The translations under genes were made by a program, and so were the position numbers. This document shows, in pieces, positions 3,001 to 25,015 of a stretch of 64,000 nucleotides of DNA. The stretch lies in assembly GCA_964036045.1 (NCBI GenBank), contig OZ038378.1, positions 39,680,001 to 39,744,000 on the forward strand, in the 5' to 3' direction. This stretch comes from Eutreptiella sp. 'Long Island Sound 2002' (lineage: Eukaryota; Protista; Euglenida). The notes under the pieces were generated by a model, which was given only the letters and a program-made list of their open reading frames with translations, had not been told where the DNA came from and ran no database searches. How positions within the stretch are numbered: position 1 is the stretch's first letter; every line of letters begins with the position of its first letter.

Positions 3001-3168
3001 ATGTTCAACCTCCCCCCCCCCCCTAGACCAGCACCCCCCCTCGCCGCCTCCGCCCCCATTTCCGCCCCTTCTCCTCGCATAACAAGGTACTTCGCACCAG
3101 CCCCCCCCTCCCCCGCGAGTACAAACTCACAATCGTCCTCACACTCGTCCAACGTGTCATCTCTTTGA
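1..3168 (+). CDS. Non-LTR retrotransposon (LINE) polyprotein, 5' part outside the window: reverse transcriptase + RNase H + Cys/His knuckle + Pro-rich tail
   Basis: Frame +1 is open from base 1 to TGA at 3166-3168 (the ORF track starts it at a TTG at 259). RT motifs: QFGGLPNRRCQDHIF, LYIDFNKAFNSV, GVRQGCPMSPILF, AFVDDL, WGLDLNLSKT, YKYLGV. RNase H motifs: WVYLDGS, SEGSEF, LGDNLHV, WIKGHAGFVGNEISD. C-terminal CHAC...SHCPTC. Confidence 0.95.
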   Translation, partial: ATHANRELLAAAIEHSIIHPTQFGGLPNRRCQDHIFNLLSTFRESVGSYSLYIDFNKAFNSVPHTTLFTVLSRLNFPTPLVNLIQSLYRAPRDFPVVSGQTHSSHLQTRGVRQGCPMSPILFCLYLNVLLFALPSHVTAPPSPHESGHAFVDDLLYRSENGDRIQQVLNFFDTVAREWGLDLNLSKTEIHAMGTAPPRTFTSPSGTPLSTTNQKTGQPHNCYKYLGVYIFTANHEAQTLALAKSEIRSFFTTLQPLQLTLSEYILLVNVQLIPILSYRLMAHPLALNELGALQAMIWQNVAHDPSPDRANRISRLVSPKARYTPRHQGGLGLRHFTFSICMALVNTAIRYLNGDGPASTNESFSEAMLSTTRNPIQDTIMDACHAIGFRYHSTGLWASCPPSLFLPKEKVQVRFLATKPAPQYSKFGNRLKRTPQDLGFHLGTVTEVHSESATLQFSDGTTHTIKNPGLRRNEKEYTFQNPAITVLPQLAGRHELLTPPLLHPQEYILNPPPGPYGGVLLDSSLHGELYRLPDEPHSLDPDDLEEWGCEAALALLLASSPGTTWVYLDGSAGALGYGSAATLFFPNGSRWVLCQTSPYQSSEGSEFWAAIMFLRWALASHPHLTFAVLGDNLHVITVLSPNTPPGLPSRSPAGTWESSLQSIQASLRPGMIQGWGWIKGHAGFVGNEISDAYSKWAAHVMVWDPSLLPPPPIGCISRGPLPVIHKLTTTSIKHLLPRHEHENIHAPSSFHFYNHTSWFKGLPFKWSSGNFNMAPFAFHDDLRPRHCHACPDPHPMDVISFVSHCPTCEHLVQSYIQCWRPPFTTVVSQWWSATTHVGERRNFVRGLVPMTLYTKLTTPPSGRRKPAHCHDLKLALKDRVPLLLSALYRTLEWLKDHPPPAPLTPPTGPNSWGRPWSPYSTSHTAQQRPPPAYHPPPPLPDKVAHKPPKRPRPPSPAAHTKTRKHGRQPPRPVRPLSLKRGTASQPQPEPPPPKRPLTIRDMFNLPPPPRPAPPLAASAPISAPSPRITRYFAPAPPSPASTNSQSSSHSSNVSSL

Positions 3169-3384: not shown

Positions 3385-5719
3385 CGGGGCTGCCAAGTCT
3401 CTTTGAGATGAAGCAGACGAGGACAGCAACGTGCAGCGGTACTCAGCCCGCGATTGAACTTGATTTCGGGCTCCCGCCCCTCCCCAAAAAAAAAAGCTTG
3501 GCGCGCAAGAGCCTTTCTCCCCGGCCTGGCCAGCCACAAAAGGCGCCGTTCAGTGCAAAAAAGGTTCCTACGGATCATGCTTTTGTTGATCAGGTCCGCA
3601 ACGTCTTTCGGGATTGCTCCCAAAAAAAGGTTTTGATAAGCTTTCCTTCGCCGAGCGCGACCCCCACATCTTGCTCCGACCTGGCAGAGGACAGAACCCA
3701 GTCCTGTGCCTTCAACCCGTTGCCGTCCCAAGTGGGAACGACGTCCCGGGGTTGTACATCCTTCAGGGCACGGGGGTCCAGTAGGGGCGGGGCCATGGTG
3801 TTATACACCCCCCGGCCATACCGCGGGATTCGACCTCCACCGGGATACACATCCACGATGTGGGGGTTAGTGGTGGCCCTGAGGGCGTAGGCACCTCTGA
3901 AAGCGCAAAGCCTCTCAAGGGACCCATAATGGGTTTGATCTTGGGCAGTTTTTCTCCCTGGGGGAAACGTTCAATTGTTACCCTCGTCATCACAAAACCT
4001 GAGATTGATTCCCCTACAATGCCTGAAATCTGCATTGGCGTCTCGGTTTCCCCTCGGTGGCATGCCATCATGGGTTGGTACCCGATGGTCTGAGGCTGCA
4101 TCGGATCGATGCGTCTCATTATGGAAACCAGCAGGCCGGTCCCGTTGTGGATGCATGAACGGATTGCTTGGCCTTGCCTCGGACACCCGTGAGGGTTCGG
4201 AGAAATACCCCCCGAAAGGTCCTCGCGGGGCCGGTTCCGCTCTGTCAGGTTAATAACCTCCGTCCATGGGGTTAACTCCCCTTGGCCTGAGGTGTTCCTC
4301 CTGCAGTTGGGCCATCAGGGTGTTCATATTGTGCCCGAGTGTCCTTATTGGCGCCTCAAAATACGAACTGGCCTGCCCTAGCTCCCTTGCCAGATGAGTT
4401 ACGGCATTTTTGTCAAAGCCTTTGGGCGGCCCTGGGGCGCAGGATGTCTTCGGGCCTTCAGTTCTCTTCGCCAGGTCCTCCAACGCTTGTACCCGCATTT
4501 CCATCTGTCCAACTTGGTCTTGAGTCTTCCGTCCTCTCGAGTCGTCTTCAGTTTTCAGGATCCTCATTCCCAGTTGGACGACCTGGTCTTGAGTTTCTCT
4601 GAGGACTTCTTCCTGACGCCGCTGCGTGTTGGTGGTGGCCCCCTTGTACAGAGCATGTTCCTCTTCAAGTCTGGCCAGGGACTCCAGCAACACATTGACC
4701 TTGCTGGGATCAGCGTTCCCCGCAGCTTTGTTGGCGGCACCGAAGGCATCTAGTCGATCCAACCGAGTCTCCATGGCCTTGATCTCTTCCGTTTCCATCT
4801 GGAGTTGTTCTGCTTGTGCCACTACGTTTGCGGCAGTTTGGTCCATCTGGTTGCTGATCACTTTCAGCTGATCAGACGCTGCTCTGACCGCTTCGTCGGC
4901 TTGGTCCGCCTTTGCGTTGATGGACTGCACTCCGGCCTGAACTTCTCCTAGGCCTTGTAGGTCATTCCCTTGCGCCTGGGAAAGGCTGGCGATCTCCTGC
5001 TCCAGGGCGGCCAGACCGGACTTCAGGACATCCAGTTGATTCCCCATGAAGTCAATCGGGTTGTCCAGGCCAGCGCGTCCAGGGGCCTGGGCTCCAGATA
5101 GCGTCTCAACTTGACGCATCACCTCCTCCACAAAGTCCTTCAATTCGGCAACTCGGAGAAGAAGTCGATGTCCTTCCGACCAACGCAAATCCAACGATTG
5201 CATGGTGGTTTGCCGAACCCCATCCATCAGCTGGCGTAGCTGATAAATGGCCATGATGGTCTCGTTGGTGATCTCATCCATGGTGGACCGATACCCGGCG
5301 AACCTCTCCGTCAGGTCCCGCAGTTGGCCCATTGCCAGGGAGGCGTCAATCTGGAAGTCCACAACCCGTACTCCGCGCACTCGGCTGCCATCAATCGCCG
5401 TCCACTCAACGGCATCCATCATTCGGCTTCGGTTGCGGTCTGCCTGGACCCAGATTGACCTGCCGAAGCCTTCGTGCATCCGCAGCTCGTTCACCGGGTA
5501 CTGTTGCGTATTCAGGGACTTATACGTAGGCGCTACCAAAGCACCGGCAGCCTGCGGGTTGCTGTAGGTCAAACTCAGCATTGGGCTGGGCATATGCTCG
5601 TCGGAAGATAAGTCCGACGGATGCCCACCCATGGGATGGACGCGTGTCCTCAGTGGTCTTGGTCCCATCTCGCCAATGACGTTCAGGTCCTCAAGTGTGG
5701 GCTGGTTTGAGTCGTCCAT
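3385..5719 (-). pseudogene. gag: Decayed gag of an LTR retrotransposon (long coiled-coil N-terminus plus capsid-like region), cut off on the left by the LINE
   Basis: ORFs 4250..5719, 3971..4186 and 3590..3856 lie in one frame separated by single stops. Heptad-rich Q/E/L/A region is followed by the capsid-like motif VVPTWDGNGLKAQDW...KLIKT(fs)LGAIPKDVADLI. A PBS lies ~100 bp upstream. Confidence 0.7.
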
Positions 5720-5818
5720 GACGATATATCTTGTTGTTGTTCTTCTTGTCGTTCTTCTGCTCTGCAGGTCGTTCTTTAGCTCCTCTTGTACTCTTGGTGC
5801 TAGAGGAGCAAGGAACTG

Positions 5819-5830
5819 CCTCTGCTACCA
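5819..5830 (-). promoter_or_regulatory. Primer-binding site complementary to the 3' end of initiator tRNA-Met
   Basis: Minus strand reads TGGTAGCAGAGG, complementary to CCUCUGCUACCA, the 3' end of animal-type tRNAi-Met. It sits just upstream of the gag ATG. Confidence 0.8.
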
Positions 5831-8619
5831 ACGGTTACGCCTCGACTCCTTCTTCGTAAGGGAAGGATGACCTTGTCCTAGTCACCCTTGGATCTACAGG
5901 ACAACACTGCAATGCAACAAGAGCAAGAAGTCCACACTTGAATCTCAACCCAAGTATCAACAATAACGAAAAAACCATCACGAAAGAGACATCCCCTGAG
6001 AGGAAGGGGAGAACAATGGACAAATATGAACACAAGACCTCATGCCTGACCTACATGCAAATGGGCAGTTTCAGGTCTTCATTCGGTATGGAAATGTAGA
6101 GTCGGGAAGTGCCCTCAAAACACACAAACTTCAGCAATTCTATTCTACAATAACATGTCCTAATGGACTGCAAACAAGGTCCCACAGCGAAAGCAAAGGA
6201 GCAATGGACACTCAGGACTTAGGACTCAAACATCCACAAATAGTGCATCCAAGGGGGCGTCCATACGGGTGCACTAAGGACCTCAGGAATGGCAAAAAAT
6301 AGGCAACATCGAAGCAATCCCCGTGGGTGCCCCGGGCAGCCAAGGGGGAAGCAATGGCTCATGTGATAGGAGGCACGACCTCAGACTCATATCTAAGTGC
6401 AAGACCTGAAATTGGGTCTGGGATTTTCATGGGCATAAAGATATGGGGCCGCCAATTGACCACATGGGGGGCTAAAATTGGAGTCCCAAAAAGGGTTGTT
6501 TTGGCATACCCAAAAATGAGCCAAAATTGAAGGTATCACCAAGGGTCTTCCTGCATGATGGCTTGGAGATGGGACTCAGCCTTTGATGTGGGACCCAAGG
6601 GGAGTCCAATGTGGGCCCACACGTACTTGGTTCCCAACGATTGCCATGGGCCATGGCATGGTGATAGCCGGACTTGTACTCACAAGCGGCAAATGGGCAA
6701 AATTGTCCACACTCACCTTCGCATAGCTGATTGTGAGCGGGCGCTTCGGTTCACTCACGTGGTGTGTGAGTCGTGGGGACCAATGTGCATAAGCTACATA
6801 CCGTAAGTGGTCCATTGGTCCATGCGTCCGGCGTGCAGGGGGGGGCGTAAAAAAAGAGGAAATGGCAGAAAATGGCCAAAAATGCGCACACCCATGGTGG
6901 AGGCAAATGGAGCACACGTCCGACTTGGACCGGGGTGCGCGCCAGAATTAGTATCAAGTCCTATGTGTCCAACATAGCTTTTGGCTGTTGCCGAAACCCC
7001 CCTGGATTTTGGACTGGCAGGGCCGCCAAGAGAGCCCATAATTTGCAATTGGCGCAAATTGCGCCCATGGTGGCCCTGGTGTGCCAAATCCAAGAAGAGT
7101 TATTGGCTAAGTCCAAGATATGATGGGCACGAAAGTGTCTACTCTCATCACATATCTGAGTCATGATATTCATTGAGGGTGACGGTGAGATACACGGTCG
7201 CCACTTGGCATCATGACGGCCGGAAAAATGGTAAAATTGATGAAGCAACACGCAGAATGGACTTGAAATCCCCACAATTATATTACAATATATCCGGCTT
7301 AAATTGAGTAGCCGGCGAATCTCTTCACACACTATGTCTTGGTACCATGGACATTCCATTCCACACTTGAGGTCCACTTGGGGTGCCAAGGAAGGTTACT
7401 CGCGCTGCTCCCGAAGTGGGCACGTGAAAAAATGTAAAAATGCAAGTAACACACCTTGCTTGCACCGCATCGCTTCGGGTGTGCTCTGCATTGGTCCTTG
7501 GGTGAAGATTAGACTTTCGAGTGTTGGTTTGCGTTATGAAGAAGGGCTCCGATTAATATGGGGTACATAGGCGGGTTTGTCTTGGAATGGTACACCCGCC
7601 AAATGGGCAGACGAAATGACCCATATTTGCCGAACCACCCTACCCAAGCCTTTTATACCCAACCTAGTGGCCTAGGACCAAAGTATGCCTATATTCTTAT
7701 GTAACCTTTGTCCTTGAACAAACATGCAAGTGCTTGGGTTGGAAATCGACCTCATTTCCGAAGTAGACTTTTGACATGCAAGCACAAAATATGGCGAAGT
7801 GGGTTATAATGGACATATATGCTCACTCCGGGGAAGGCAAGTGATATGACCCGGGCGTTAAGGCATGCATGCAAAGAGGGAGATTATACCAACTCAACAT
7901 TATTCTACATGTACTTTGGCGCCAAGTACATGAGAATGCCCAGGTTTTGGAAAATCCCAAAAATGTATAACCCTTTGGGATGATTGAGTTGGGATCCAAT
8001 GGCTTCAATACGAGGGTGATATGGGCAAACCCTCATCAAGAGTGCCTATGAGGCACATTAGGTCGCCCTAGGGAGATTGAACGCGCGAATCACTCGTTAT
8101 TGGACTTGGGGGATTGGAGCGGGTTTGGAGATTTTTCTTCACGGGAAAAATCGGCAACTTACGTCAAAAATTATAGAAAAAAATTGCGGAACACTCGAAG
8201 GGTATTGCGCCCTTAGGTTCTCAAAAAATCACTTCATAAATTTCGCTTACCAGAGCCGCGGCACAGGCCGAGGCGGCAATTGCGACTGCGACAACGGGCG
8301 CCTGTGGTAACATAATCGACCATGATCGAGTTCCGATGCAACTCGGTCACCAACATAAAATTGTTGGAATTCCTGATTGCCTGATGCCACTCATGGCAAT
8401 TAACGGCAACGTCGGGAATCAAATCGTCTTGCAGTCACTTGGTATCTCAGCGAAAGAAGGGAGATACCTCAGGGACATCGTAAGGGTCCCCATGGGGGGC
8501 CAAAGAGGCGGCCCTTACAGGCTGGTCAATCCGAAAATACTGAAGAGGGCCCTGCTAGGGCCGCAAAGCTTACATTTGTGGTGCGGACGCCGTTAGAATT
8601 CTTCATTGAGTGCCGGACT

Positions 8620-9187
8620 GTTTCCGCTGGGTACTTCCTTGTTTCTCTTGTTTGTCTTATGATTTTGAATTTTGACGTGGCAAAAAACTTCTGCATTGTT
8701 GCAAGAAGATTGAAATAGTCCAAGTGCTCAAGAACACCGGATTTGCTTGTATTGATTTCAAATCTGGAAACTACTTGAACTCCGAGGAAACCAACCACTT
8801 GTGGCAATCCACTACAACATCATGACGGGAATAGATCGAGTGGTTGGTGTAGTCGGTCGGCGTGATCGATTTTAGAAGGCAAAAGTGTAGGACAAAGGCA
8901 AGTTTGAGTCAATTTCTCGTCCAGAGTTGCTTGAGTTCGGGCAATAAAGCTGCTTGCTTTTCGCGGTTGACGTTGCGGTACGCTCCTTGCTCCCACATTG
9001 CGACATTGCCAAGAAAGCGGCATTGCCAAACAAGGCGGCTAGAACGGTGTTCACGGTAGTGCGTTGTTGCACTAGGCGACTAGCAAATGTCCGCAAGGGT
9101 AAATCTCTTGCCACAGCTCCAAGTTGCAATTTCGCCCCAGCTTGATGGGCAGATGGGGACGATTTAGTTTTTGATCTGCCCCGACAT
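8620..9187 (-). pseudogene. Processed pseudogene/retrocopy of an unknown trans-spliced mRNA
   Basis: ATG at 9187 lies 21 nt after the SL relic. One frame continues ~190 codons with only scattered point stops (..WQCRFLGNVAMWEQGAYRNVNREKQAALLPELKQLWTRN*LKLAFVLHFCLLKSITPTDYTNHSIYSRHDVVVDCHKWLVSSEFK*FPDLKSIQANPVF..). Product not recognised. Confidence 0.5.
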
Positions 9188-9208
9188 TAACAGGATCTGT
9201 GGGTCAAT

Positions 9209-9234
9209 CGAAAAGAATAGACACTAAGAAAGCG
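9209..9234 (-). other. Euglenid spliced-leader (SL) relic
   Basis: Minus strand reads CGCTTTCTTAGTGTCTATTCTTTTCG versus the Euglena SL ACTTTCTGAGTGTCTATTTTTTTTCG. It is followed by ATTG, not a GT donor, so it is cDNA-like rather than an SL RNA gene. Confidence 0.8.
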
Positions 9235-9289
9235 ACAACTCTCCTGGGTTGTTCTGGGACGAGTAGTCCACCAAAACGGAGTTTAGGCA

Positions 9290-9420
9290 ATCCTCAGGGA
9301 GCAGGAAGGAAGAAAAAGGTTCCAAGGTAGCTTTCTCCACTCCAAACCCTTCCTAGAGGGTGAGGAATCGCCACCCTTGGCAGTAGCGTTGTCGGAGGAT
9401 GGACTTCACCATGTAGAGGT
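9290..9420 (-). pseudogene. C-terminal chromodomain of the integrase
   Basis: Manual translation gives LYMVKSILRQRYCQGWRFLTL*EGFGVEKATLEPF, matching the chromodomain consensus YxVExIL...YLVKWxGY...TWEP (both conserved W codons appear mutated, to TAG and TTG). Confidence 0.75.
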
Positions 9421-9699
9421 CTTCCTTGGCCATCACCTCAGCGTTCATGTCGGGGAGTTCTCCTTCTACTTCCATCGGGCTGGCAGCGCCCTGTAGGTCA
9501 AAAGCGGCGATCTCCTCGTCATTCAGTTCCCACTCTTCGGTACAGAGGTCATCTGGGTTGTATTAGTGCTTCAGCTGTTGGGCTGAGCACACCAGGATCC
9601 CCCCTAGTCGGGGAGAACACTGCACAGTGATGCGGTGACCGTCCACCAACACGATCTTCCAGGACCCAAAGTAGGGGTCATCACTGGTGTAGCACGGCC

Positions 9700-10580
9700 A
9701 GGCGGGTAGCCGACTGTTGTGCACCAACACCCAGTCACCCTCTTAGTGGGATGCACGCACTCGGTGTCTGTTCTTCATGGTCCACTCTCGCTCCCTCACT
9801 CCTTGGAGCATAGCTTTGGCCTTGTCTACCTTGTCCTATTGCTCCTTCACCCATTTTCCCACCATAGAGTAGGAATCTCCATGATAGGGAGCGTGTAGGT
9901 ACACCCCGGTCGCCCCATGAATAGCTCATGGGATGAATAGCCAGTTGTTGAACTCTCTTGAGAATGCATCATCAGGGAAATGTCGGGGAGTAGTCTCATC
10001 CAGTCTTTGGTGCGTTCAGTCTTGCACCATATCCTGACGTTCTTCTTGAGACCTCGGATCTGTCGCTCACATAGGGGGCTATCCGTATGAGTGTAGGGAA
10101 TCTCTGTAGACACTTGGACATTGAGGGATCTCAGGACTCTCCTGTACCAGCCAATGTCTGAGCGCACTCTGTCGTCCTCGTCGGAATGGATCTCTTTAGG
10201 TGCCCCATAGACAGAGAACCACTCTTCGTGGAGTATCTTGATTGTCTCCTCCCCGGTGATGTGCCTGGTACATGGGATCACTCCGATAAACCTGGTCAAC
10301 CCACAGGTCACCACTAGGGCAAAGTCATAGCCCCGAACCTTCGGCACCTGCGTTTAGTCAACATCGAGCACACTGCTGGCACAGTGGAGGATGGAAACGG
10401 TCAAAAAAAGACCTCTGTCCTTGATACCCCCAGGTTTACAAGACCTGCACGGGCACCTGTCCGCGATAGGTGGCAGGGTTTTCCGTAGTTGATCATCACT
10501 CCACGTAGAGTGGAACCACTTCTTGAACAGTTTCAAGGTACGGTTGACACCAAAATGACAACTGGACTCATGGTCCACTT
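9700..10580 (-). pseudogene. Gypsy integrase (HHCC zinc finger plus DDE core)
   Basis: HESSCHFGVNRT...CPCRSCKP; YGAPKEIHSDED; PLCERQIRGLK; ELFMGRP (ORFs 10354..10578 and 9847..10347). Confidence 0.9.
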
Positions 10581-10859
10581 GAGCAGAGCCGGGATACGGT
10601 CGCTAGCTGGCAAGAGTATCCGGTCCTCATGCCAGAGATAGGTCTTATCACGTTTCCACTGCTCCTCATTGACCGGGACAGGTTCCGAACGCTTCTCCAG
10701 GCGTTTGTAGATATCCCCAAACTCCTTCACGTACTCAACTTGTTGGAGTTCATCTAGAGGTGCGATCATGGTCATGTTCAGGTCAAGGTGTACATCTATT
10801 CGGCAGAACGCCTTCTTGGCTAGCTCCTCACAACGTGCACCAATCATGTCGTCAAAGCT

Positions 10860-11400
10860 GTTGCGGCTGATGTAGTCCGCACACACGTTCTTGACACCCT
10901 GGATATGGTGTACTAAGAGCCGTAGCTGGCTCAGGTAGGTAAAGAATCGTCTGAGCTTAGCCTTCTCAGGTGGGGGGCCCTTCTGGAAGTTGCGAACCAG
11001 TTCTTGGTCACACAGCCAAACCACAGCGTTGCTCTGCAACAGTCGGGACTGAGGATTGCACCAGCCTACCCGCAAGCAGTTCCTGCTCATAGGTAGAGTA
11101 GTTACCGCCTGGCCTGGTTCCATTTGCAGTTCAAATGGCCCAGGGGTACCAGGACCGATCAGTACTCAGGGTAGCTGTGCTTCATTATTCCATCTCGGTT
11201 CAGTCCATCAGTCCCCCATTGGGATATGGCCGAGGGGAACTCCTCCTTCTCTAGGGCTTGCCACTGGAACAACGTTCCGCCTCCGCCCACATTGCTGGCA
11301 TCAGTCACCAGGATAAATTCGCCTTGTGCCTTAGGCACGCCCAAGCATTTAGCGTTGGCCACTTTGTCCTTGAGCTCGTCAAACGCTTGTTGCTCTGGAG
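10860..11400 (-). pseudogene. Gypsy RNase H
   Basis: EFILVTDASNVGGGGTLFQW; later WLCDQE and HHIQGVKNVCADYISR (ORFs 11159..11362 and 10533..11123). Confidence 0.88.
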
Positions 11401-11410
11401 GGCCCCAGCG

Positions 11411-12400
11411 CTAGGTAGTGCTCTTCTCAATGAGATCCGTCAGGATGGCTCTGGTGTAGGTGAAATTCAGTATGTGGCGGCGGTAGAAGTTGCAAACCAC
11501 AATGAAGCTGCGTACATCATGGAGTCCTCTCTTGGGGTCTTCATGTCGTACCTTAGCATCCATCAGGGGTTTGGCCTTAGAGGATGCAGGGGTCCACCAC
11601 CCATAGCCAATGTGGGACCCGAGGTACTGTATAGTCACCTGCGTGAGCTCACAGTGCTCCTGCTTCAGTCCTGTGTCGTTCTCCTTGCTGACAGCAAAGA
11701 ACTTGCCAAAGAGGATGCGCTGGTCCTCCATGGTGGTCGTTGCCAGGAATACATCATTGATGTGTGCTTCCATATGGGCGCCTCGGTGTATGAGTTCTTG
11801 CACCACGGGTCTACGAGGTAAGATGGACAACATCTTGTTCATCAGCTCTTGGAAAAGAGCGGGGGCGTTCGCCATGCCAAAGGGCATGACGTTCCGTTTG
11901 AACACCTTCCCCTGAGGGGTGATGAGTGCTAGTAGCTCTTGGGCATTGGGCGTCAGGTCCACCTGCCAGAACCCACTTTGCTTAGTCTTCTAGCAGCAGG
12001 TGGCCATCTTTTCCAGGGTCGACTGCATGTTGAGAATAGACCCCGAGTGGTTCAATGTTTTCTTGTTCAGCTCTTCATACTCCACCCCCAGCCGTTTGGC
12101 TGTAGACCCAGGTTTAGCCACCACGAAACAGGGGCTGCGGTGCTTGGGCTAGTCCCCATCCTTGTACTCCAGCACCAGGCCAGCGTCAATACACTCTTGT
12201 ATCTTTCGCTCGGTCTCCTTTGCCTCCTCTTTAGGATCAGGGGAGGGCCTCCGACGTATCTTGTGACCGACGAAGTGAGGTTTCCGCTTGAGGTCCATTT
12301 GAACCAGCTTGTGACAGGAGGCTGGAGGGGGTAGTTCACGAAACACATCCAGGTAAGTCCTGATTAGCTTCTGTACTTTCGGGTCCAAGGGTTTAATCTT
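11411..12400 (-). pseudogene. pol: Gypsy reverse transcriptase
   Basis: IQECIDAGLV...SPCFVVAKPG; VMPFGMANAPALFQELMNKML; AHINDVF (degraded YxDD); IQYLGSHI; DVRSFIVVCNFYRRHI. Confidence 0.93.
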
Positions 12401-13239
12401 GTCATCTAGGTCCGCCTCAGAGTGTAGTTTGCTTGCCTCTTGGTAGATAGAGGCAGGCAGGTGGCCCTCAACCGGCTCAGCATCCTTAGCGGGGTCGTCC
12501 AGCCCTTGATAGGCATACAATAGGTCCCGCTCCACCGTCTCTGGTGGTCGGTTATAGCATAGACACGCTCGAGTGGGTTCGCATACGCATCTCTCTGAGA
12601 GTTCATCTTCTTCACGGGTCCTCACATGGCCACCCCACACGCTGTTCATGAGCTTCAAGTCCACCTCTCGTCGCCACGTGGTTATCTTGCGTTCCGGGTC
12701 CTCCTTCAGCTGGGAAATTTCTCCCATAGACCCTTGCTTCAACGGCCATGAGCTGCGGGTAGGTCTAGCGTACCATAGCCTTCACTTGGAGTTCACATAT
12801 CCTCTCAGCCTTGATCGGAGATCCAACGCGCCGTCCAGTGGCTCCTCTCCCCTCGTGGAGAATACGGGTTTCTGTGGGGTAGCGTACTCGGCGTTCTCCA
12901 CTTCCTGCACGCAAGCCTGGACGAAGAAGGCGTCATAATCGGCCTCGTCATCGGAGTGTATTGAGATGGGGAGCTCGGATAGCCCACACTTTGAGACTCC
13001 ATCACGAGTAGGTACATGGCATGGGGGGTTGGGGGCAACAGCATCCAACACGACGTATGCGTCTCCCCCAGGAGTCGTCCTCAGTGCGTCTCGAGCCCGA
13101 GTCGGTCTTTCAGGACGTCCAGGGTGTAGCCGCTGCTCTCACGTTGAATCTCCTGGACCAGAGCGGGTTCCAGATCTTCCCACAATACTGGGGCCAGGCT
13201 CCCATCCACGACGCTTAGCATATTCCGCCATGCTGGTGT

Positions 13240-13632
13240 ATTCTTGCCAAGTGGCATGTAGATGACGTCGTCGGGCACCTGGGTGCAGGTAAGCGTCAGC
13301 TTCTCCAACAGAGTACGCCAGTACTCATTTCCCCCCTAGGCTCACCTATCCGGGGAGCACAGGAACATACGGGAACGTTCCAGGGCCACCTTTGTCAGCA
13401 CCTTCTCCAGTTGACTGAGCCTGGGGTTCCCGTAGGCCATCCTGAAAGAGGGCCAATAAAAGTCATAGCAGCAATTGCGCCCTTTGCTGCAGTAGAGGTC
13501 GAAGGTTTGCTGCTTGTAACTGGCGAACAACCCCACGTGCACCTCTTCCCTAAAGTATCCGAAATGCTTTAGACCTCGGTCTACGACACCCCCAGAGAGC
13601 TGATAGTCATCCGTTTTGCAGGCGACCATCAT
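13240..13632 (-). pseudogene. Dam-like/DIRS-type N6-adenine DNA methyltransferase domain inside pol
   Basis: TDDYQLSGGVVDRGLKHFG...VHVGLFAS...LYCSKG..CYDFYW...YGNPRLSQLEKVLTKVALE..MFLCSPD(R*A*)GGNEYWRTLL. This follows the DLFAS...W...(Y)xNPPF..VLxK...ILxxPxW...W pattern and stays in frame with ORF 13081..13308. Confidence 0.7.
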
Positions 13633-13699
13633 CGCAGAGGGCTCCTTCTTGCATACCGTCAGCTAGCTGGACGTGCGCTCAGACTACCCCAGTGGTACA

Positions 13700-14060
13700 G
13701 AGTCCCGTCCGTCACCATGGTCCACATGAAGAACATGGGGAGGTTTGCAGCGTGACGGATGGAATCTGGGGGTGTTCGGCGAAGAGGTCGGTCCCCAGAA
13801 AGAAGTCGAAGGCTTCGGTATCCATCACATAGAACGGGTGCGCAATGCTCCTAGATCCCATAGACACGTCGAACTCGCAGTCCCCGCAACTGTGCACCAC
13901 GTGGCCCTCCCCCATCCATGCGTGTGGCAGCCGTAAGCATGATATTCTTCAGGTCCCCGCAAGGTAAGGTTTTCTTGGCCAGGATCGATATAGTGGCCCC
14001 AGTATCAAGTACCCCCAGGTATTCTCGTCCCCAAAGACGGATACGTCCCCAGAACACCAA
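13700..14060 (-). pseudogene. Gypsy aspartic protease
   Basis: YLGVLDTGATISILAKK (DTG at ~13998-14006), then VMDTEAFDFFLGTDLF. Confidence 0.9.
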
Positions 14061-14087
14061 ATCTGTACCTCCCCCAAAGCGTCTTTG

Positions 14088-16540
14088 TCAGAACTCCGCT
14101 GGACAGGTGACGTCAAACCCCTTCTTGCGACGTTTTCGTGCCATCCGCATGAAGCGGGAGCGTTTGCGGAGGTTTGACTCGTCCTTATCTTCGTGGCCGC
14201 GCTTGGCGCCTTGTTCTTGTTGCCCTTGCATTTGGGAACGGGTCGTAGGCCCCGGGTTTGCTGCCCCCCTGGTGTAGGGTTGGGGTTTCCCCCGGACCTG
14301 TCCTAGTTCTTGTCCGGGTCTTCCTGTCAGGGCCTCGGCATCCTCCTCCTTTGCCTTGCTCTTGGCATTTACCACCGCCCTTGGACTTACCCTTGCCCTT
14401 GTCACCGTTGTTTTTGCCGCTTTGACCCCCATTCTGGGTCTCACTCTTCGGGTTGGCTTACAAGCGCTGCTTGTGGTAGCGGTCATCCTCGTAGTGCTTG
14501 CGCTCGCTACACAAGGCACAGGTGATGATACACCTGAAATGGTCGGGCATTCCGGCCTTGCCGCCGGCGTTGGTCTCCTCCCTTTTGCCCTAGACCATGA
14601 AGCACTCGTGCCGGTCACAGTCCGGGGTATGCACTAGGCCCCCCTTCTCATTTTTGGCGTCACAGCAGAGCAGGTCCTCGACATTGCTCATGTAGCGAGC
14701 ATTCTTGGGGGTTGACCCTTGTCCAGGTTGAGGACCTTGGTAACCATGGCCATGGTTCGCAGAGTTGCCTCCCCCAGAGCGGTAGGCGTTGAGTTGCTGG
14801 TCACTCTCCTTCTCCAGCGCCAGCTCCAATAGAAGCACAGACAAGTCCTCATAGGTGAGGGTTCTTGCCTTGCGTTCCGCCGTTGCCCGACACTCATCCC
14901 ACAGGTCTCGTGGGATATTGGCTACCAACCAGAAAAGCAGCTCTTCGCTGCCATAAGATCCGGGCGTCAGTCGCCCCACCCAGTGATCCAAGCCAGCGAG
15001 AAGTTCAGAGATACGCGCAGCCTTGGGGTTGTTGGGCAACATAGCCACGTTCTGGATCCCGGTCCGGATGGATAGGTGGGTCTCATAGGAGGGGTACTGC
15101 CTCTCAAGGGCAACCAACACATCGGCGAACGTGGCAGACTTTGTCACGATCGGTTTCACTTGCTTGTCCAAGTACTTGCGCTTGCAACACTGCAAGAGTG
15201 AGTCGCACTCCACCCCCCCATCTAGTGTGGGTCTGGCCGGTGTATCCTCAGAAACTGGCCAAAACTCTCCGCCAACTCGCTGAGGTCCTTGCCAGTGAAC
15301 TCCGGCAGGTTTACCACAATCTTAGAGGTGGCAATAGCCTTAATAGCCTTGGCCTCCTTGGAGCGACGCCTCTGTGGGCGCCTGCTCTACCTTGTCTTCT
15401 TCTTCTTTTTGCCACTCGGGTAATTGGGGTCCTCAGGGTCATCGTCCCCAGAGGGTGAAGCTGACGATAAAGCTGGTGGTTCGTCGTCTGAAGGATCACC
15501 GCCCAAGTCTCTGGAGCTATAGGGGTCTACATCTACCATAGCCCTCAGGGCTGTCAGCCCCCGTCGGTCCAGTTCCGCGCGTCTGGAATTCTCCACATGG
15601 CTCTAGGGCGGTTGTGCCATTCTTGGCACGAAGGGGCTCCTTGGAACATTTGCAAGGGTTGGCATCGGTCGGCTTCTCACACCACCCAGGGTATGAGTCA
15701 GACCGGCAACCAGATGGTTGGCCTATACTCGGTGAGGGGAAGCTCCAATGGTTACAAGTGACCCATGAGCTGGTATCAGGGGCTCCATTTTGGCCCGGAT
15801 CTCTTGAGCGAGGTCACTAACTTGTTCAGCAGTGGCACCACGGAGATCTTCCCTTATCTCAGAATGCGTCAGGGACTTGTTATAGGGTCTTGTAGATCCC
15901 CTGCTCGGTCCTCCACAAGACTCAGGGCGTCGCAGTCCGCTGATGGAAGTAAAGCCATGCTCCGGCATGGTATAGGCAGGCATTGTAGGAGAGCACACAC
16001 ACGCGGGGCCCTGCGAAAGGCATCTGGTTCGTGACATGGGGTCGGCTCATGAATAGCATCGTAGGAAGAGCCAGATGACATTCGTTCGCTAACGTGATGT
16101 CCCATAGGTGGCTCAATAGCGAGTGGTTCCACTCCATGCGTAGGGCAAGGCATACCAGTAAGGCCTGTGCCCTCAGCCACGGGTGGAGTGGTTATAAGAG
16201 AGGATGATGCTGGGTGTGTAGCTGGGAGTGTAGTGGCCGTAGGAGACGATACTTCAGGGTGTTCGGTCGCGCTCGGAGCGCTCTCAGAGTGCCTTTTGCC
16301 GTAGGATACATCTTGTGTTCGTGCATGCTCGCCTTCACAAACATCTTCGGCTCCTCCTTACCCTGTCTCCTTCTCCTTCGCCTTGCCTTCAGGTGTCTGC
16401 ACGTGCAATCCATTGAAGGCAGCTCCCAAGATTCCAAGAGAGTCATCGTCAAGCCCACTTAGGGGCGCTGTAAGTACAGGGTCCTCAGGTTCAGGTTCAC
16501 TAGCACGTTTTTGCTTTGGTGCCGGCCTGGCTGGTGCCAT
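14088..16540 (-). pseudogene. gag: Gypsy gag with capsid region and CCHC-type knuckle
   Basis: Low-complexity N-terminus. Capsid-like LLQCCKRKYLDKQVK...LERQYPSYETHLSIR...TYEDLSVLLLELALEKESD. Knuckle CALCSERKHYEDDRYHK at ~14475-14522 (last Cys mutated to Arg). Confidence 0.8.
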
Positions 16541-16664
16541 TGAGGGCGCTCTCGTCTCGGCAGTGTCCTTGGTATCGATTATATTTTCTTCGGCGCTTCA
16601 AGAGTGATCAGTCTCCGCGTACCGGTTGAACTGCACGGGGTTGCAAGTACGCACAGACTGGTTG

Positions 16665-16676
16665 CCTCTGCTATCA
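16665..16676 (-). promoter_or_regulatory. Primer-binding site (tRNAi-Met), one mismatch
   Basis: Minus strand reads TGATAGCAGAGG, the same motif as 5819-5830 apart from G>A. It lies just upstream of gag. Confidence 0.7.
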
Positions 16677-17087
16677 CAAAGTTGGAACAACTTTGACTCA
16701 TGAAGTTCTTGATGTGTTTTTTGATGTGCCGCTCCTGCTTGTTCCTTGCTCCTTCCTCAATTCCACAGGTTTTTATTGAGTTTTGTGAAATAAAATAAAA
16801 AAGCTAGTCCCAGTAATCCAAACAGTGCACAACACAATCTCAAAGTCCACTACATGAAAGGCTGCAATAACAAAGGAAACAATCTACAATGTACTTACAG
16901 CAAAGCAACTCGCAAGGGCCACATACTTACAAAAAATATTTGGAAAAGTGCCCACATGGGCACTCTCTCCTTTGATAGTGCAATCTAGAGATGTGCACTT
17001 TTTTTTTGGGTCCCACAGGTGCTGAGGTGGCATGGCATGTGGCGTTGAGGGCACTGCCATTTCACATGGGATCATCCTACTTAGCTA

Positions 17088-17165
17088 GGCTGACTGGGTA
17101 CTGAACCCAGGACCTCTCCAAAACAGGTATCCCAGCTCCCTAGGGTGCACACCACTAGGATAGCA
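17088..17165 (-). other. tRNA-like (SINE-head-like) sequence
   Basis: Minus strand has A-box-like CTATCCTAGTGGT and B-box-like GGTTCAGTACC at tRNA-like spacing; the cloverleaf is poor. Confidence 0.3.
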
Positions 17166-17433
17166 AAGCATTCATCAAAAAATATAGAAGAATGTAAAGG
17201 CTCTGAACTCAGAGCAGCGCCTCAGTCGATCAGGAAAATGGTGTTTATGTGAAAATAGTTGGTGGGTCAGGGGTCCACACAACATACTTGGTTTACCGAT
17301 TGGTTTTATAGGTCAAAATGCTTTGTCCCCATTTTGGCAGGGCCAATACTAAGATAAAAATGTAATATGCCTCTAGGTATCTCTAACACAACTAAAGCTT
17401 ACCCCTAGGCGTGGGAATACACTTTTTCTTACT

Positions 17434-20118
17434 AACCCACTTGATGGCGTAGAAACCTGTCACTGTGGAATTGATGCACATGACGCCTTCGCTGTGGTCA
17501 AAGGGTGGAATGACATGGATTTTTGGAAAACACCCAAACAAATACAAAACTAGCATCCCTCGCAGGGTGCACCCTGGTCGGCCTATGTTGACCCACCATC
17601 TGAAGACATTTGGAAAGAGCAACACTTGACCATGAAATTATGGGCAAAAGTGTGCACCGACTAAGTAGTGGTTGAAAAGCACCTCTCAGACGCAAAACCA
17701 GTCATCTTTGTGCACTCAATAATCGTTTGAGCAAGGAATCTGGAAATTGGGACTCACTGAGCAGACTGCGAAAGCAGCAGAAAATGCTGGAAATGTTGTG
17801 TTGGGATGCAGGGTTGTAGAGAGTTGATAAGATGGCTGTCAAACACTGCAGCACAGCCACGTGGGTGGCACGTAGTACTTCAGAAGAAATGAGCAGAAAA
17901 AGCCCGGCTTGATCACTCTGTGTTTAGGTATTCTGCTGAGCAGCTGAACGTAGCAACGTTTTTGGGTCCATAGCTTCGGGGTCATATTTCAAATACAAAC
18001 GGGCCTCTGATGCACTATCCGAACTCGGAATGCTATGAAAGGCAATAAGAAACATATCTGTGATAGAATGGGAATTGGGTTTCTTTTGTCAAACTTCATT
18101 GTGCACTTAGAGCCCTCCACTTCGAGCACCTTACCCGAACCCTTGAAATTCTGCCCCTGGGCTGTGGCTGTGGCTGAGTACCCTACTTCACAACATTCAG
18201 GCATTATGTATGATCCGTTCAAATGACCTCTCTGCATTGGTCCTCCAGCGAAGGAAGACCCCAGTTCTCTGGGCAGATCAATCTGTGCTCATGGCCTCTG
18301 GCCAAGAGGGCTGAGTACCCTACCTTATAACATTCAGATGGCACCGATGATCCTTTGCAATGAAGTATCTGCATAGGTCCTTCAGCGAAGGAAGACCCCT
18401 ATTCTCTCTGTTCTCTGAGTACATGAGACTGTGCACATGGGCTCTAACCAAGGTGGCTTAGTTTACAATATTCTCATAGTACCTGTGATCCTCTGCGATG
18501 AACTCTCTGATATGACCACCTGCCTCCCCAAATGGAATTGCGCCCATAAACTGCTGGGCACTATCTGCAGTGAGAAGGTGGGGGGGGGGGGATTGGTCAG
18601 AAATTCAGATAGTACATGTGATCCTTTGCGATGAACTCTCTACATACGTCGCCCAGTGAAGGAAGACCCCTGTTCTCTGAGCAGATGCTCAAAGTCCAGA
18701 TACAAAGGAGCCTCTGATGCACTATCCGAACTCGGAATGCTATGAAGAGCAGTAAGAAACACATCTGTAATAGAATGGGAACTGGCTTTCTTTTCTGTCT
18801 GCCACTTGATCGTGCACTCAGGGCCCTCCACTGCGAGCCCCTTATCACAACCCTTGAAATTGTGCCCCTGGGCTCTGGCCAGGGTGGCTGAGTACCCTAC
18901 TTCACAAAATTCAGGCATTATGTATGATCAGTTCAAAGGACCTCTCTGCATAGGTCCCCCAGTGAAGGAAGACCCCTGTTCTCTGAGCACATGAATCTGT
19001 GCACATGGGCTGTGGCCAAGGTGGCAGAGTACCCTACTTTACAACATTCGGATAGTACCAGTGATTGCGTGTCCCTTGCATTGCGAGTCCCTAACCCCAA
19101 CTCTAGGGGCCACGCACTAACTAGACTACCTAGACTGAGTAGACTGCTAAGCATTGTCTGTAGCAAGAAAGGGGGGGGGAGATCGGTCCATAGAATGTTG
19201 TGCTTTGAATAGAGTTAACGCCACAACTCAAAGATGTCCGCTTCAGTCATCCGCTTCCCAAAAACACGAAGGAAAATGCATGTCAACCGATCAGCGTTCA
19301 CACAGTGTGCAAAATTTTTTTTTCGGGCATCCAGGCGGCATGTGACTTTTTTTTTGCCACCCCTACACTTCTCTAGTTGTGTGCAGGTTGATTCGTCACA
19401 ATCGAGCTTGCCGCAATAGTTTTGTCGCACTAGGTAGGCACTCCAGCCTCCCTTGACAACCGGTCAATTTTGGAACACCTCAACATCCACTCCTTGAATG
19501 GGCCCAAGGGCACCTTGCGTCTCCTGGGGCGGTGGTGGTATCTTTGCGGGGGTTTCACGTTGTGAACCGCAATTCCACTCCCGGGTTTCCACACGGCCAC
19601 CAAACGCTGGTGGTCACGCGGCTCCACGCTTCGTCCACACTCATTGCTCAGTGGGGCCGCGCTAGTGTAGCAAGGCTACCAGCTCCGCTTGAAGAGTAGA
19701 TGGATCGGACACCATGCTCAATGTGGGTGGCAGCGCCCCGCATCAAGGGCCCCTTGTCCGCTGGCTGACGATTGCATTTAACATGTCTGGGCAACAAAAG
19801 ACATTTGTATAGCGCCTCGTCCTGCTAATCTGCCGCTCCAGACGGGGTTTAGAGGGGTAGGGGGGGGGGGGTTCGTGTGAAGCCTCAAAAGTCGGTGTCC
19901 CCTGTGGGTGGGGAGCAATCAACCCAGAAAAAGAGTGGATGTGGTGGGAATGCACAAAAACGTACAAATGGGTGAAACAAAGGTGCAAATCCAAGCTGAG
20001 GGTGTGGGGGGTCAAACTTGCTTCATCACCCGTGCCGTTATGGGGTCCCCGCACACACCACGCTCCCCCACCGGTGCCGAGGGAATCGCCCATAACACTT
20101 TGTTGACCACTTCTAAAA
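17434..20118. repeat. Composite repeat, copy A (direct paralog of 21787-23649)
   Basis: Collinear shared blocks: ACCCACTTGATGGC..., GGAGCCTCTGATGCACTATCCGAACTCGG, AATTCCACTCCCGGGTTTCCACA, GATTGCATTTAACATGTCTGGGCAACAA, GGGAATCGCCCATAACACTT...CTTCTAAAAT. Confidence 0.8.
18160..19085. repeat. Internal diverged tandem repeats of ~110-130 bp (GAAGGAAGACCCC.GTTCTCTG...GGCTGAGTACCCTAC)
   Basis: The motifs GAAGGAAGACCCC and GAGTACCCTAC recur about five times each here, and again at 22470-22960. Confidence 0.75.
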
Positions 20119-21786: not shown

Positions 21787-23649
21787 AACCCACTTGATGG
21801 CATAGGAACCTGTCACTGTGCAACTGATGCACAAGAAGCCTTCGTTGTGGACAAGGGCTGGAGTGCCATGGATTCTTGTACATGACCCAAACAAATACAG
21901 AACCAGCATCCCTCCCTGTGTGCACCCTGGTCGGCCTATGTTGACCCATCATCTGAAGACATTTGGAAAGAGCAACACTTGAGCATGCAATTATGGGCAA
22001 ACTTGTGCACCGACTGAGTAGTGCTTGAATAACACCTCTCAGAGTCTGAGCAAGGAATCTGGAACTTGGGACTGACTGGGCAGACTGCGAAAGCCGTAGA
22101 AAATGCACAAAATGCTGGGATGCAGGGTTGTAAGGAGTTGATAAGTATGGCTGTCAGACACTGCAGCACAGCCACGTGAGTGGCACGTGGTACTTCAGAA
22201 GAAACGAGCAGAAAAAGCTTGGCTGGATCACCTCGTGTCTGGGTATTCTGCTGGGTAGCTGAGCGTAGGGTCAGTAGCTTCGTGCTCAGACTCTAGATAC
22301 AAAGGAGCCTCTGATGCACTATCCGAACTCGGAATGCTATGAAGAGCAGTAAGAAACACATCTGTAATAGAATGGGAACTGGCTTTCTTTTCTGTATGCC
22401 ACTTGATCGTGCACTCAGAGCCCTCCACTGCGAGCACCTTATCACAACCCTTGAAATTGTGCCCCTGGGCTCTGGCCAGGGTGGCTGAGTACCCTACTTC
22501 ACAAAATTCAGGCATTATGTATGATCCGTTCAAATGACCTCTCTGCATAGGTCCCCCAGTGAAGGAAGACCCCTGTTCTCTGAGCAGATGAATCTGTGCA
22601 CATGGGCTCTGGCCAAGGTGGCTGAGTACCCTACTTTATAACATTCGGATAGTACCTGTGATCCTCTGCGATGAACTCTCTGATATGACCACGTGCATCC
22701 CCAAACAGACTTGCGCCCATAGACTGCTGGGCACTGTCTGCAGTGAGAATGTGGGGGGGGGAGGGGGAGGGGGATCGGTCAGAAATTCAGATAGTACCTG
22801 TGATCCTTTGCGATGAACTCTCTACATACGTCCCCCAGTGAAGGAAGACCCCTGTTCTCTGAGCACATGAATCTGTGCACATGGGCTCTGGCCAAGGTGG
22901 CTGAGTACCCTACTTTACAACATTCGGATAGTACCTGTGATTGCGTGTCCCTTGCATTGCGAGTCCCTAACCCCAACTCAAGGGGCCACGCAACAAAGCG
23001 TGGACTACGAGTCCCTAACCCCAACTCTAGGGGGCACGCAACAAAGCGTGAATTGTGAGTCCCTAACCCCACCTCAAGGGGCTCCGCAACAAAGCGTGGA
23101 TTGTAAATCCCTAACCCCAACTCAAGGGGCGCAACAATACTGACCAATATGGGGTTGTGAAACAAACAAACAAGTGGAACACCCCACATTTCACGTTGTG
23201 TACCACAATTCCACTCCCGGGTTTCCACAACCGGCCACCAAACGCCGGTGGCCACGCGGTTCCACGCTGCGCCCACACTCATTGCTGAGTGGGGCACCGC
23301 TAGGAAGGCTAGCAGCTCCGCTTGAGGAGTAGATGGATCGGACACAATGCTCAATGTGGGTGGCAGCATCCCGCGCCAAGGGCCCCTTGTCCGCGGGCTG
23401 ACGATTGCATTTAACATGTCTGGGCAACAAACAACATTTGTATAGCGCCTTGTCTTGCTAATCTGGCGCTCCAGAGGGGGTCTAGAGGGGTGGGCGGGGG
23501 GTTGGTGGTCCAAGCTGAGGGGGGGGAGGGGGGGGTCAAAATCAAACTTGCTTCATCACGCGTGCTGTCATGGGGTCCCCGCACACACCACGTCCCCCAC
23601 AGGTGCCTAGGGAATCGCCCATAACACTTTTGTTTACCACTTCTAAAAT
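21787..23649. repeat. Composite repeat, copy B
   Basis: Collinear with 17434-20118; both copies end at CTTCTAAAAT. Confidence 0.8.
22961..23136. repeat. 48-bp tandem repeat, about 4 copies (GAGTCCCTAACCCCAACTCAAGGGG...CAACAAAGCGTGGA)
   Basis: Units start at about 22961, 23009, 23057 and 23105. Only one unit is present in copy A (~19084). Confidence 0.85.
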
Positions 23650-24270: not shown

Positions 24271-25015
24271 GGTACACAACCTGCTTATACAGTTTTTCAC
24301 CCTGGGCAGCTCAAAAATCGAAGTTTTCGAAACTTGTTTTTTTGATATTGCCATCACTTAAAGTGACCATCCAAGCTACGTAAAGCATGTTTTAGGCCGT
24401 ATTTACGTGTTTCTCACCCTATTTGGGTATTAGGTCCGGGGGGGGGGGGGGTCTCCCAAGGGATTGGTAGACAACCTGCTTATGCCGTTTTTCACCCCGG
24501 ACAGCTCAAAAATCGAAGTTTTTGAAACTTGTTTTTTTGATATTATGATCACCCAAAATGACCATCCAAGCTATGTAAACCATGTTTTAGGCCGTATTCA
24601 CGTGTTTCTCACCCCATTTGGGTATTAGGTCCCGGGGGGGGGGGGGGGGGTCTCCCAAGGGATTGGTACACAACCTGCTTATGCAGTTTTTCACCCCGGA
24701 CAGCTCAAAAATGGGAGTTTTTGAAACTTGTTTTTTTGATATTGTGATCACCTAAAATGACCATCCAAGGTATGTAAAGCATGTTTTAGGCCGTATGTAC
24801 ATGTTTTTCACCCTATTTGGGTATTAGGTCCGGGGGGGGGGGGGGCTCCCAAGGGATTGGTACACAACCTGCTTATGCAGTTTTTCACCCTAGGCTGCTC
24901 AAAAATCGAAGTTTTCGAAACTTGTTTCTTTGATACCGTGACCACCTAAAATGATCATCCAAGGTATGTAAACCATGTTTTAGCCCGTATTTATGTAGTT
25001 TCCACCCTATTTTGG
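24271..25015. repeat. ~197-bp tandem satellite, about 3.8 copies
   Basis: Units begin GGTACACAACCTGCTTAT at 24271, 24466, 24665 and 24859 (periods 195, 199, 194), with a poly-G tract closing each full unit. Confidence 0.95.

What the first reader, a model, noticed from the sequence alone, without database searches (positions are those of the whole stretch)
13240..13632. Ty3/Gypsy chromovirus carrying a Dam-like N6-adenine methyltransferase between protease and RT
Seen: between the DTG protease and the RT of a DDE-integrase Gypsy element lies a ~130-aa domain reading TDDYQL..VVDRGLKHFG..VHVGLFAS..LYCSKG..FYW...YGNPRLSQLEKVLTKVALE..FLCSPD.G..EYWRTLL. It continues in the same frame into the spacer ORF 13081..13308. 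Established: this motif spacing matches the phage Dam-type/DIRS-associated N6A-MTase. In DIRS elements that domain sits after RNase H next to a tyrosine recombinase, and the retrotransposon-captured methylases I know from Gypsy are C5 DNMTs. Inference: this is a Gypsy lineage that captured an adenine MTase at a new position, cleavable by its own protease, possibly to mark its cDNA or integration site. The catalytic motif reads NPR(L/F) instead of NPP(Y/F); Arg (AGG) is at least two changes from any Pro codon, so it may be a family trait implying altered or lost catalysis.
Basis: partly seen in the sequence, partly recalled or inferred. Interest (0 to 1): 0.88.

Follow-up and report, generated by a model that had tools for sequence, protein, structure and literature searches.

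The report
Gypsy retrotransposon with altered Dam domain
A broken copy of a very abundant Gypsy-type jumping gene carries, between its protease and reverse transcriptase, a domain predicted to fold like phage DNA adenine methyltransferases; such elements were described in a 2026 preprint, and this family's twist is a changed active-site motif that selection likely kept.

Summary
Window 13611-13198 (minus) encodes a Dam/PCIF1-type N6-adenine methyltransferase-fold domain between protease and RT of a decayed Ty3/Gypsy copy with a C-terminal chromodomain (19 stops, 9 frame switches, no LTR pair). It is native to the family, not a DIRS insert: natural ORFs join gag-PR-MT and MT-RT-RH-IN-chromo, and a distant intact 2036-aa polyprotein has the same order with canonical NPPF. 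A model of a natural copy (pLDDT 92.5) matches phage Dam-type enzymes (TM 0.73-0.76) and PCIF1 (Z 10.2). Arg in motif IV is a family trait (117 of 120 copies, none Pro), derived within NPP relatives, and the domain shows weak-to-moderate signs of purifying selection. The residues that contact the target adenine (Asn, first Pro, aromatic) are kept, so loss of catalysis is not shown. The kind is known: DAM-LTRs, some with chromodomains, were described in bioRxiv 10.64898/2026.05.21.726589, which found no activity in E. coli. The scan has found this before on other DNA (65 notes, at least 2 genomes). New here at most: the PR-MT-RT order (not stated in the preprint's text; figures unseen) and NPRF. 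Host not identified.

The parts
9236..15665 (-). Decayed Ty3/Gypsy gag-pol region (gag-PR-MT-spacer-RT-RH-IN-SH3-like-chromo), 10 tblastn segments, 9 frame switches, 19 stops; no LTR pair found
   Evidence: tblastn of natural copies P0056, P0156; no LTR pair
14239..15665 (-). gag region with C-x2-C-x4-H-type knuckle remnant near 14520-14494
   Evidence: 30-32% identity of family gag to gag of P0373
13745..14081 (-). Aspartic protease, LDTGA at 14009-13995, split by frame switches
   Evidence: PF00077 E 4.2e-4 above cut-off
13198..13611 (-). Dam/PCIF1-type N6-adenine MTase-fold domain (about 140 aa), two stops inside
   Evidence: E 2.6e-37; 34% identity to P0373 538-721, E 8e-29; fold of a natural copy
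13519..13533 (-). Motif I-like GLFAS (family ELFAS 90 of 120; relatives D/E-LFAS)
13417..13428 (-). Motif IV, NPRL here; NPRF in the family; NPP(F/W) in distant relatives; Arg codon AGG at 13422-13420
12410..13197 (-). Post-MT helix and acidic, poorly conserved spacer (boundaries approximate)
   Evidence: no significant match to the spacer of P0373, E 0.36; no Pfam hit
11414..12410 (-). Reverse transcriptase (HINDV at 11764-11750; intact family copy HIDD; start approximate)
   Evidence: PF00078 E 4.3e-14
10880..11410 (-). RNase H (end approximate)
   Evidence: PF17919 E 2.1e-12
9880..10602 (-). Integrase (H2C2 remnant and DDE core)
   Evidence: PF00665 E 6.5e-6, PF17921 E 0.058
9236..9745 (-). 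SH3-like (GPY/F) segment and chromodomain remnant (about 9420-9250); similarity to the family ends at 9236
   Evidence: 74% to P0156 1187-1413; no Pfam hit on this copy; PF00385 E 0.01 in P0156, above cut-off in P0373

Best explanation
The stretch is a dead copy of a domain that a high-copy chromodomain-bearing Ty3/Gypsy family encodes in frame between protease and RT; it is predicted to have the Dam/PCIF1-type N6-adenine methyltransferase fold and, in working copies, likely methylates adenines in the element's own RNA-DNA or cDNA intermediates inside the particle. Shown: position, family-wide presence, single reading frame in natural copies, derived NPRF motif. Predicted: fold. Inferred: made as part of Gag-Pol and packaged with RT; release by the element's protease; activity kept despite Pro-to-Arg, because Asn, the first Pro and the aromatic residue remain; benefit through 6mA-linked permissive chromatin after integration (the preprint's model). 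Odds: anatomy about 0.95; still catalytically active on some nucleic acid about 0.45.
For: Family trait: 259 hits among 1315 candidates, 120 listed at 62-73%; 46 of 120 carry the protease motif in the same ORF, 43 of the 46 at the same 114-residue spacing; P0156 (1428 aa, cluster of 6186 members) runs from motif IV through RT, RH, IN to a chromodomain; P0373 is one 2036-aa ORF gag-PR-Dam-RT-RH-IN-Chromo with NPPF. Fold: pLDDT 92.5; 18 viral matches at E<=0.001, best a phage N6-adenine MTase, E 1.8e-6, TM 0.73; PCIF1 Z 10.2, rmsd 3.0, 130 aligned; PF05869 hits 19 of 24 relatives tested. Constraint: identity to P0373 is 40-41% in the MT, 37% PR, 40-43% RT, none in the spacer; two NPRF subfamilies differ at 10 of 141 MT columns, 6 of 98 PR columns, 37 of 280 linker and spacer columns; 5 of 7 intermediate-frequency DNA variants in 13390-13540 are synonymous, one at the Arg codon itself. 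Motif IV chemistry: D/N, first-Pro carbonyl and aromatic contact the adenine (PMC3814359 passages). DAM-LTR insertions are richer in 6mA in three species (preprint).
Against: No activity is shown for any retrotransposon Dam: the preprint's E. coli assay was negative, and PMC4738411 calls DIRS1 MTases likely inactive. The second Pro is in both motif consensus forms given in PMC3814359, and the preprint finds Asn-Pro-Pro in almost all DAMs. The family also departs near motif I (Gln where 21 of the xPP rows have Asn). The selection signal is weak: Fisher p 0.07 for MT versus linker and spacer, binomial p 0.049 against a transitions-only expectation, on depth-weighted contigs. Pfam Dam hits none of 13 NPRF copies and only 1 of 24 relatives passes the curated cut-off. 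No Foldseek match in the PDB at E<=0.001.
Confidence: 0.5

Rival explanations
1. The NPRF domain is a pseudo-enzyme: it has lost methyl transfer but is kept as a nucleic-acid- or SAM-binding or scaffolding module of Gag-Pol (for example holding template RNA, or reading rather than writing 6mA).
For: Second Pro replaced in the whole family and, as Tyr, in the sister pair P0250/P0364 (tree), so the position relaxed in their ancestor; DIRS1 MTases proposed to be inactive binders (PMC4738411); negative E. coli assay; the fold is still constrained.
Against: Asn, first Pro, aromatic and acidic motif I residue are kept at 93-97% in 120 copies; Arg is fixed rather than drifting (117 of 120; synonymous AGG/AGA variation), which fits a new contact as well as a dead site.
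Confidence: 0.3
2. The domain is an RNA methyltransferase like PCIF1, marking the cap-adjacent or internal adenines of the element's genomic RNA rather than DNA.
For: [quoted passage not shown]
Against: Phage Dam-type models match better (TM 0.73-0.76 against 0.61-0.65) and PF05869-type enzymes may simply lack a solved structure; the 142-residue domain has none of PCIF1's other domains; 6mA enrichment on DAM-LTR DNA.
Confidence: 0.15
3. The domain is a separate DIRS fragment or a chance passenger inserted in this one copy.
For: None found; two single contigs skip part of the domain, which shows only private deletions.
Against: Present in 120 of 120 listed family proteins at fixed spacing, in an intact 2036-aa relative and in 7 of 55 distant relatives with a protease motif upstream in the same ORF; no second hit and no tyrosine-recombinase Pfam hit among the ORFs scanned.
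Confidence: 0.01

Closest known systems
DAM-LTR retrotransposons (Fernandez-Moreno et al., bioRxiv 10.64898/2026.05.21.726589; whole main text read, figures and supplements not seen), above all the 'Chlorophyta DAM-chromovirus-like' and 'Euglena DAM-LTR' groups
   Same: Ty3/Gypsy pol with DDE integrase, a Dam-type domain with a five-stranded sheet, and a chromodomain.
   Different: Motif IV is NPRF, not the Asn-Pro-Pro that the preprint finds in almost all DAMs; no DNMT after the chromodomain in P0156 or P0373 (so not an EpiLTR); the PR-MT-RT order is not stated in the text ('protease' occurs 0 times; the one position given is between integrase and RT for another clade), but may be drawn in its Fig. 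2B. Which of its five lineages this belongs to was not tested.
DIRS1-like retrotransposon MT domain (PMC3266345, passages)
   Same: Same Dam/PCIF1-type domain inside a retroelement pol.
   Different: In DIRS the order is RT-RH-MT with a tyrosine recombinase and inverted repeats; here the MT precedes RT and the element has a protease and a DDE integrase.
Phage DNA N6-adenine methyltransferases (Pfam Dam PF05869, phrog_111)
   Same: Best structural matches; profile hits in relatives.
   Different: Embedded in a eukaryotic polyprotein; NPRF copies no longer reach the profile.
PCIF1/CAPAM cap-specific adenosine methyltransferase (PDB 6irx, 6irw)
   Same: Closest solved fold, Z 10.2 over 130 residues.
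   Different: 12-15% identity; no WW or helical domains; substrate unknown.
Gypsy elements carrying C5 cytosine methyltransferases (de Mendoza et al. 2018; seen only as cited in PMC6338049 and the preprint)
   Same: Methyltransferase captured by a Gypsy element.
   Different: Different enzyme class (C5, not N6A).

Membership tests
Ty3/Gypsy LTR retrotransposon | pol order PR-RT-RH-IN with DDE integrase | tested here: met
   best PDB sequence match of P0156 is Ty3-G Gag-Pol, E 1.9e-59
Ty3/Gypsy LTR retrotransposon | two flanking LTRs, PBS, PPT, target-site duplication | tested here: inconclusive
   no LTR pair in the window; similarity ends at 9236, so this copy looks 3' truncated; no full-length DNA copy was available
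Chromovirus (Chromoviridae branch) | chromodomain after the integrase | tested here: met
   PF00385 above cut-off in relative P0373; E 0.01, below cut-off, in family copy P0156; 55% identity between them; no hit on the decayed window copy
Chromovirus (Chromoviridae branch) | RT branches inside the chromovirus clade | not tested
   no reference RT set was fetched; no RT tree built
DAM-LTR (2026 preprint) | Dam-type domain encoded in a Ty3/Gypsy element | tested here: met
DAM-LTR (2026 preprint) | DAM profile hit at E<1e-5 (the preprint's screen) | tested here: not met
   0 of 13 NPRF copies hit PF05869; among 24 relatives 2 reach E<1e-5; E-values here come from hmmscan, not the preprint's search, but an NPRF family would probably be missed by such a screen
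DAM-LTR (2026 preprint) | host encodes AMT1; copies enriched in 6mA | not testable with these tools
   no genome held, organism coded, no modified-base data
N6-adenine MTases (Dam/PCIF1 type) | Rossmann-like MTase fold | tested here: met
   (model of natural copy P0086, residues 148-289)
N6-adenine MTases (Dam/PCIF1 type) | motif IV (N/D)PP(Y/F/W) | tested here: not met
   NPRF 102 of 120, Pro at the third position 0 of 120; met in relatives: NPP 37 of 55 below 55% identity
N6-adenine MTases (Dam/PCIF1 type) | SAM-dependent methyl transfer to adenine N6 | not testable with these tools
   needs a bench assay
DIRS order | tyrosine recombinase; MT after RNase H | tested here: not met
   MT lies before RT, DDE integrase present; no recombinase hit among the ORFs scanned
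EpiLTR | DAM plus DNMT plus chromodomain | tested here: not met
   P0156 and P0373 end shortly after the chromodomain, no DNMT Pfam hit; a separate downstream ORF in full-length elements was not checked

The most novel reading that the evidence does not exclude
A DAM-LTR lineage outside the five described ones, with the MTase between PR and RT, in which the most amplified family rewired the catalytic loop (NPP to NPR, sister group NPY) under selection: either a new substrate (RNA cap or RNA/DNA hybrid) or a switch from 6mA writer to reader. Pfam-based screens miss such families, so DAM-LTRs are undercounted, and natural NPRF/NPYF/NPPF trios give a ready comparison for what retroelement Dam domains do.
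Probability: 0.25. Interest if true: 0.6.

Novelty: new variant of a known kind. Interest (0 to 1): 0.3.

Why it matters
The function of the Dam-like domain of DIRS and LTR retroelements is an open question: no activity has been shown. This family shows that an element can spread to very high copy number with a non-canonical motif IV that is fixed and apparently under selection, beside relatives with NPPF in the same position. That gives natural pairs for an assay, and it warns that profile screens miss such families. The capture itself is not new.

Tried and rejected
No genome is held for the window, so no DNA-level dN/dS, LTR, PBS or flank analysis. Pfam on the window copy and on 13 family copies: no Dam hit. 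PDB sequence search with profile A1: 14 matches, all protease, none MTase. Foldseek PDB: nothing at E<=0.001. ESM Atlas gave no answer. JGI metagenome scan with P0373: 20 pattern matches, 0 confirmed. No RNA holder listed; the guessed RNA run X6 laid 0 contigs, which is no evidence on expression. Host genes: 140 other ORFs of the window gave 2 weak, uninformative Pfam hits; host lineage not identified. Run X5 (organism B, another study) also holds the family (4233 contigs laid), but I cannot say whether it is a different species. Literature searches for the PR-MT-RT order, for second-proline mutants and for PCIF1 with DIRS and NPPF found nothing (0 papers; 1 paper; the preprint as the only relevant one); the library lacks most subscription journals. 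No phage or DIRS sequences were in the MT tree, so it has no outgroup and does not test the donor. No complex was folded: no binding claim is made. Rejected: single-copy DIRS insertion; EpiLTR; 'unprecedented capture'.

Full report
Observation. The minus strand from 13662 to 13084 is one frame with two stops. Pfam places a retroviral protease upstream (PF00077, E 4.2e-4) and RT (E 4.3e-14), RNase H (E 2.1e-12) and integrase (E 6.5e-6) downstream. Pfam does not recognise the domain itself. The copy is dead: two natural family proteins align in 10 segments with 9 frame switches and 19 stops between 15665 and 9236 (counted), and no LTR pair was found.

It is a family trait. The X-read segment found 259 longer proteins among 1315 candidates; the 120 listed are 62-73% identical, all from ENA. 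In 46 of 120 a protease motif lies upstream in the same ORF (43 at the same spacing), in 4 an RT motif lies downstream, in 1 both. P0056 joins gag, PR and the domain; P0156, 1428 aa, representative of 6186 sequences, runs from motif IV through RT, RNase H and integrase to a weak chromodomain hit (E 0.01). Laid contigs agree: 18,255 contigs of run X1 fit 8500-17500, summed depth over the domain (192,222) is of the order of the RT bins, and the 3' flank is about a hundred times lower (the tool warns that this is no copy number). A single-copy DIRS insertion is excluded.

What the domain is. A phmmer search of 1.84 billion representatives with a natural copy gave 361 hits, 150 listed. Of the 55 listed rows under 55% identity, 37 read NPP(F/W/L) and 7 have a protease motif upstream in the same ORF; of the 62 rows at 55% or more that cover the motif, 39 read NPRF and none NPP. 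PF05869 Dam hits 19 of 24 proteins picked from that list (E 1.2e-6 to 0.023; 1 above cut-off; 5 with protease and Dam in one ORF), and phrog_111 hits 11 of 72 alignment members. A search among longer proteins returned 1 hit of 512 candidates, P0373: one 2036-aa ORF with gag, PR, Dam (NPPF), RT, RNase H, integrase and a chromodomain above cut-off. The window copy aligns to it at 34%, E 8e-29, and a profile of the 39 NPP rows finds 13608-13198 at E 2.6e-37 and nothing else in the window. A model of a natural NPRF copy (142 aa, 72 rows) has pLDDT 92.5. It matches phage N6-adenine MTases (18 at E<=0.001, TM 0.73-0.76 for the best) and, among solved structures, PCIF1 first (Z 10.2, rmsd 3.0, 130 aligned), then KsgA/DIMT1-type enzymes (Z up to 8.8) and T4Dam (7.8); Foldseek on the PDB ranks PCIF1 first but only at E 5e-3.

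The NPR motif. Arg stands in 117 of 120 copies, Pro in none; NPRF in 102. In a tree of 43 MT domains the NPR rows form one clade (100/99), sister to two NPYF rows (97/82), inside groups with NPPF and NPPW; the root is a midpoint, the bootstrap had not fully settled, and two labels (P0342, P0227) were mis-picked by my pattern (P0342 reads NPPF; P0227 reads KPRL). So NPR is most likely derived. The domain has been about as conserved as PR and RT over long distances (40-41% against 37% and 40-43% to P0373; spacer not alignable). After the change, two subfamilies (143 of 151 proteins clustered; both NPRF) differ at 10 of 141 MT columns, 6 of 98 PR columns, 37 of 280 linker and spacer columns and 0 of 73 RT columns (MT against linker and spacer p 0.07; the post-MT helix, 14 of 36, was used for the clustering and is left out). 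Of 16 variants listed for 13390-13540, 7 have intermediate share and 5 of these are synonymous on the window codon (p 0.049 against a transitions-only expectation, 0.004 against all changes). This is modest evidence that the NPRF domain stayed under selection.

How it likely works. In DNA m6A MTases the D/N side chain and the carbonyl of the first Pro activate N6, and the aromatic residue stacks on the base (PMC3814359, passages). NPRF keeps these three; only the second Pro, present in both consensus forms in that paper, is changed. I therefore put activity on some nucleic acid at somewhat better than even: about 0.45 on the element's own cDNA or RNA-DNA intermediates, as in the preprint's model, and 0.15 on RNA as in PCIF1, whose order of preference is ssRNA > hybrid > ssDNA > dsDNA (PMC9178792, abstract). 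A pseudo-enzyme takes about 0.3; PMC4738411 (passages) holds DIRS1 MTases to be PCIF1-clade and likely inactive. Packaging with Gag-Pol and release by the protease follow from general Ty3/Gypsy biology (my knowledge) and were not tested.

Comparison. bioRxiv 10.64898/2026.05.21.726589 (whole main text read; figures and supplements not seen) reports DAM domains in Ty3/Gypsy elements in five lineages, two with chromodomains, Asn-Pro-Pro conserved in almost all, 6mA enrichment on DAM-LTR copies in three species, and no activity in E. coli. Its text never names the protease, so the PR-MT-RT order is not stated there, but its Fig. 2B shows architectures that I could not see. In DIRS the order is RT-RH-MT (PMC3266345, passages); PMC6338049 (passages) lists DAM in DIRS and C5 enzymes in Gypsy and DIRS. 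I found the preprint before looking at the scan's notes; these hold 65 findings with the same words in at least 2 genomes, the 8 shown all on Dam-like domains in Gypsy elements, while a look-up by sequence found none.

Verdict. Real, correctly read, native to a very abundant family; a variant (NPRF, PR-MT-RT) of a recently described kind. The host, the RT clade, the donor and any activity remain untested. Interest 0.3.

Noticed in passing
window 1-3165 (+): Open frame of 1055 aa from the window's edge with RT (E 2.4e-27) and RNase H (E 6.1e-5): a LINE-like element that looks far more intact than the Gypsy copy.
   Followed up: no
window 4253-5824 (-): 524-aa open frame with coiled-coil-type weak Pfam hits only; perhaps ORF1 or gag of another element.
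   Followed up: no
window 61012-62265 (+) and 61024-62199 (-): Two long overlapping antiparallel open frames (418 and 392 aa) with no useful Pfam hit.
   Followed up: partly
window 17434-19116, 21787-23044, 24271-25015: Blocks of about 137-nt and about 195-nt tandem units and a 0.9-kb duplicated segment; 16928-17228 is very high-copy in the laid runs and could be a 5' LTR or another repeat.
   Followed up: no
protein P0155: A class I SAM-dependent methyltransferase (Methyltransf_23, E 1.2e-10) joined in frame to this family's integrase and chromodomain in a single record; probably read-through across an insertion junction, not a second capture.
   Followed up: partly
proteins P0250, P0364: Sister group of the NPRF family with NPYF: the second Pro is replaced by another residue in the closest relatives too.
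   Followed up: partly
proteins P0156, P0373: RT catalytic motif reads HIDD in this family and FFDD in the relative, not the usual YxDD (the usual form is recalled).
   Followed up: no
proteins P0302, P0246, P0319 clusters: NPPF/NPPW relatives lie on contigs of the same lengths as some NPRF copies, which suggests that canonical and altered families coexist in one assembly.
   Followed up: partly
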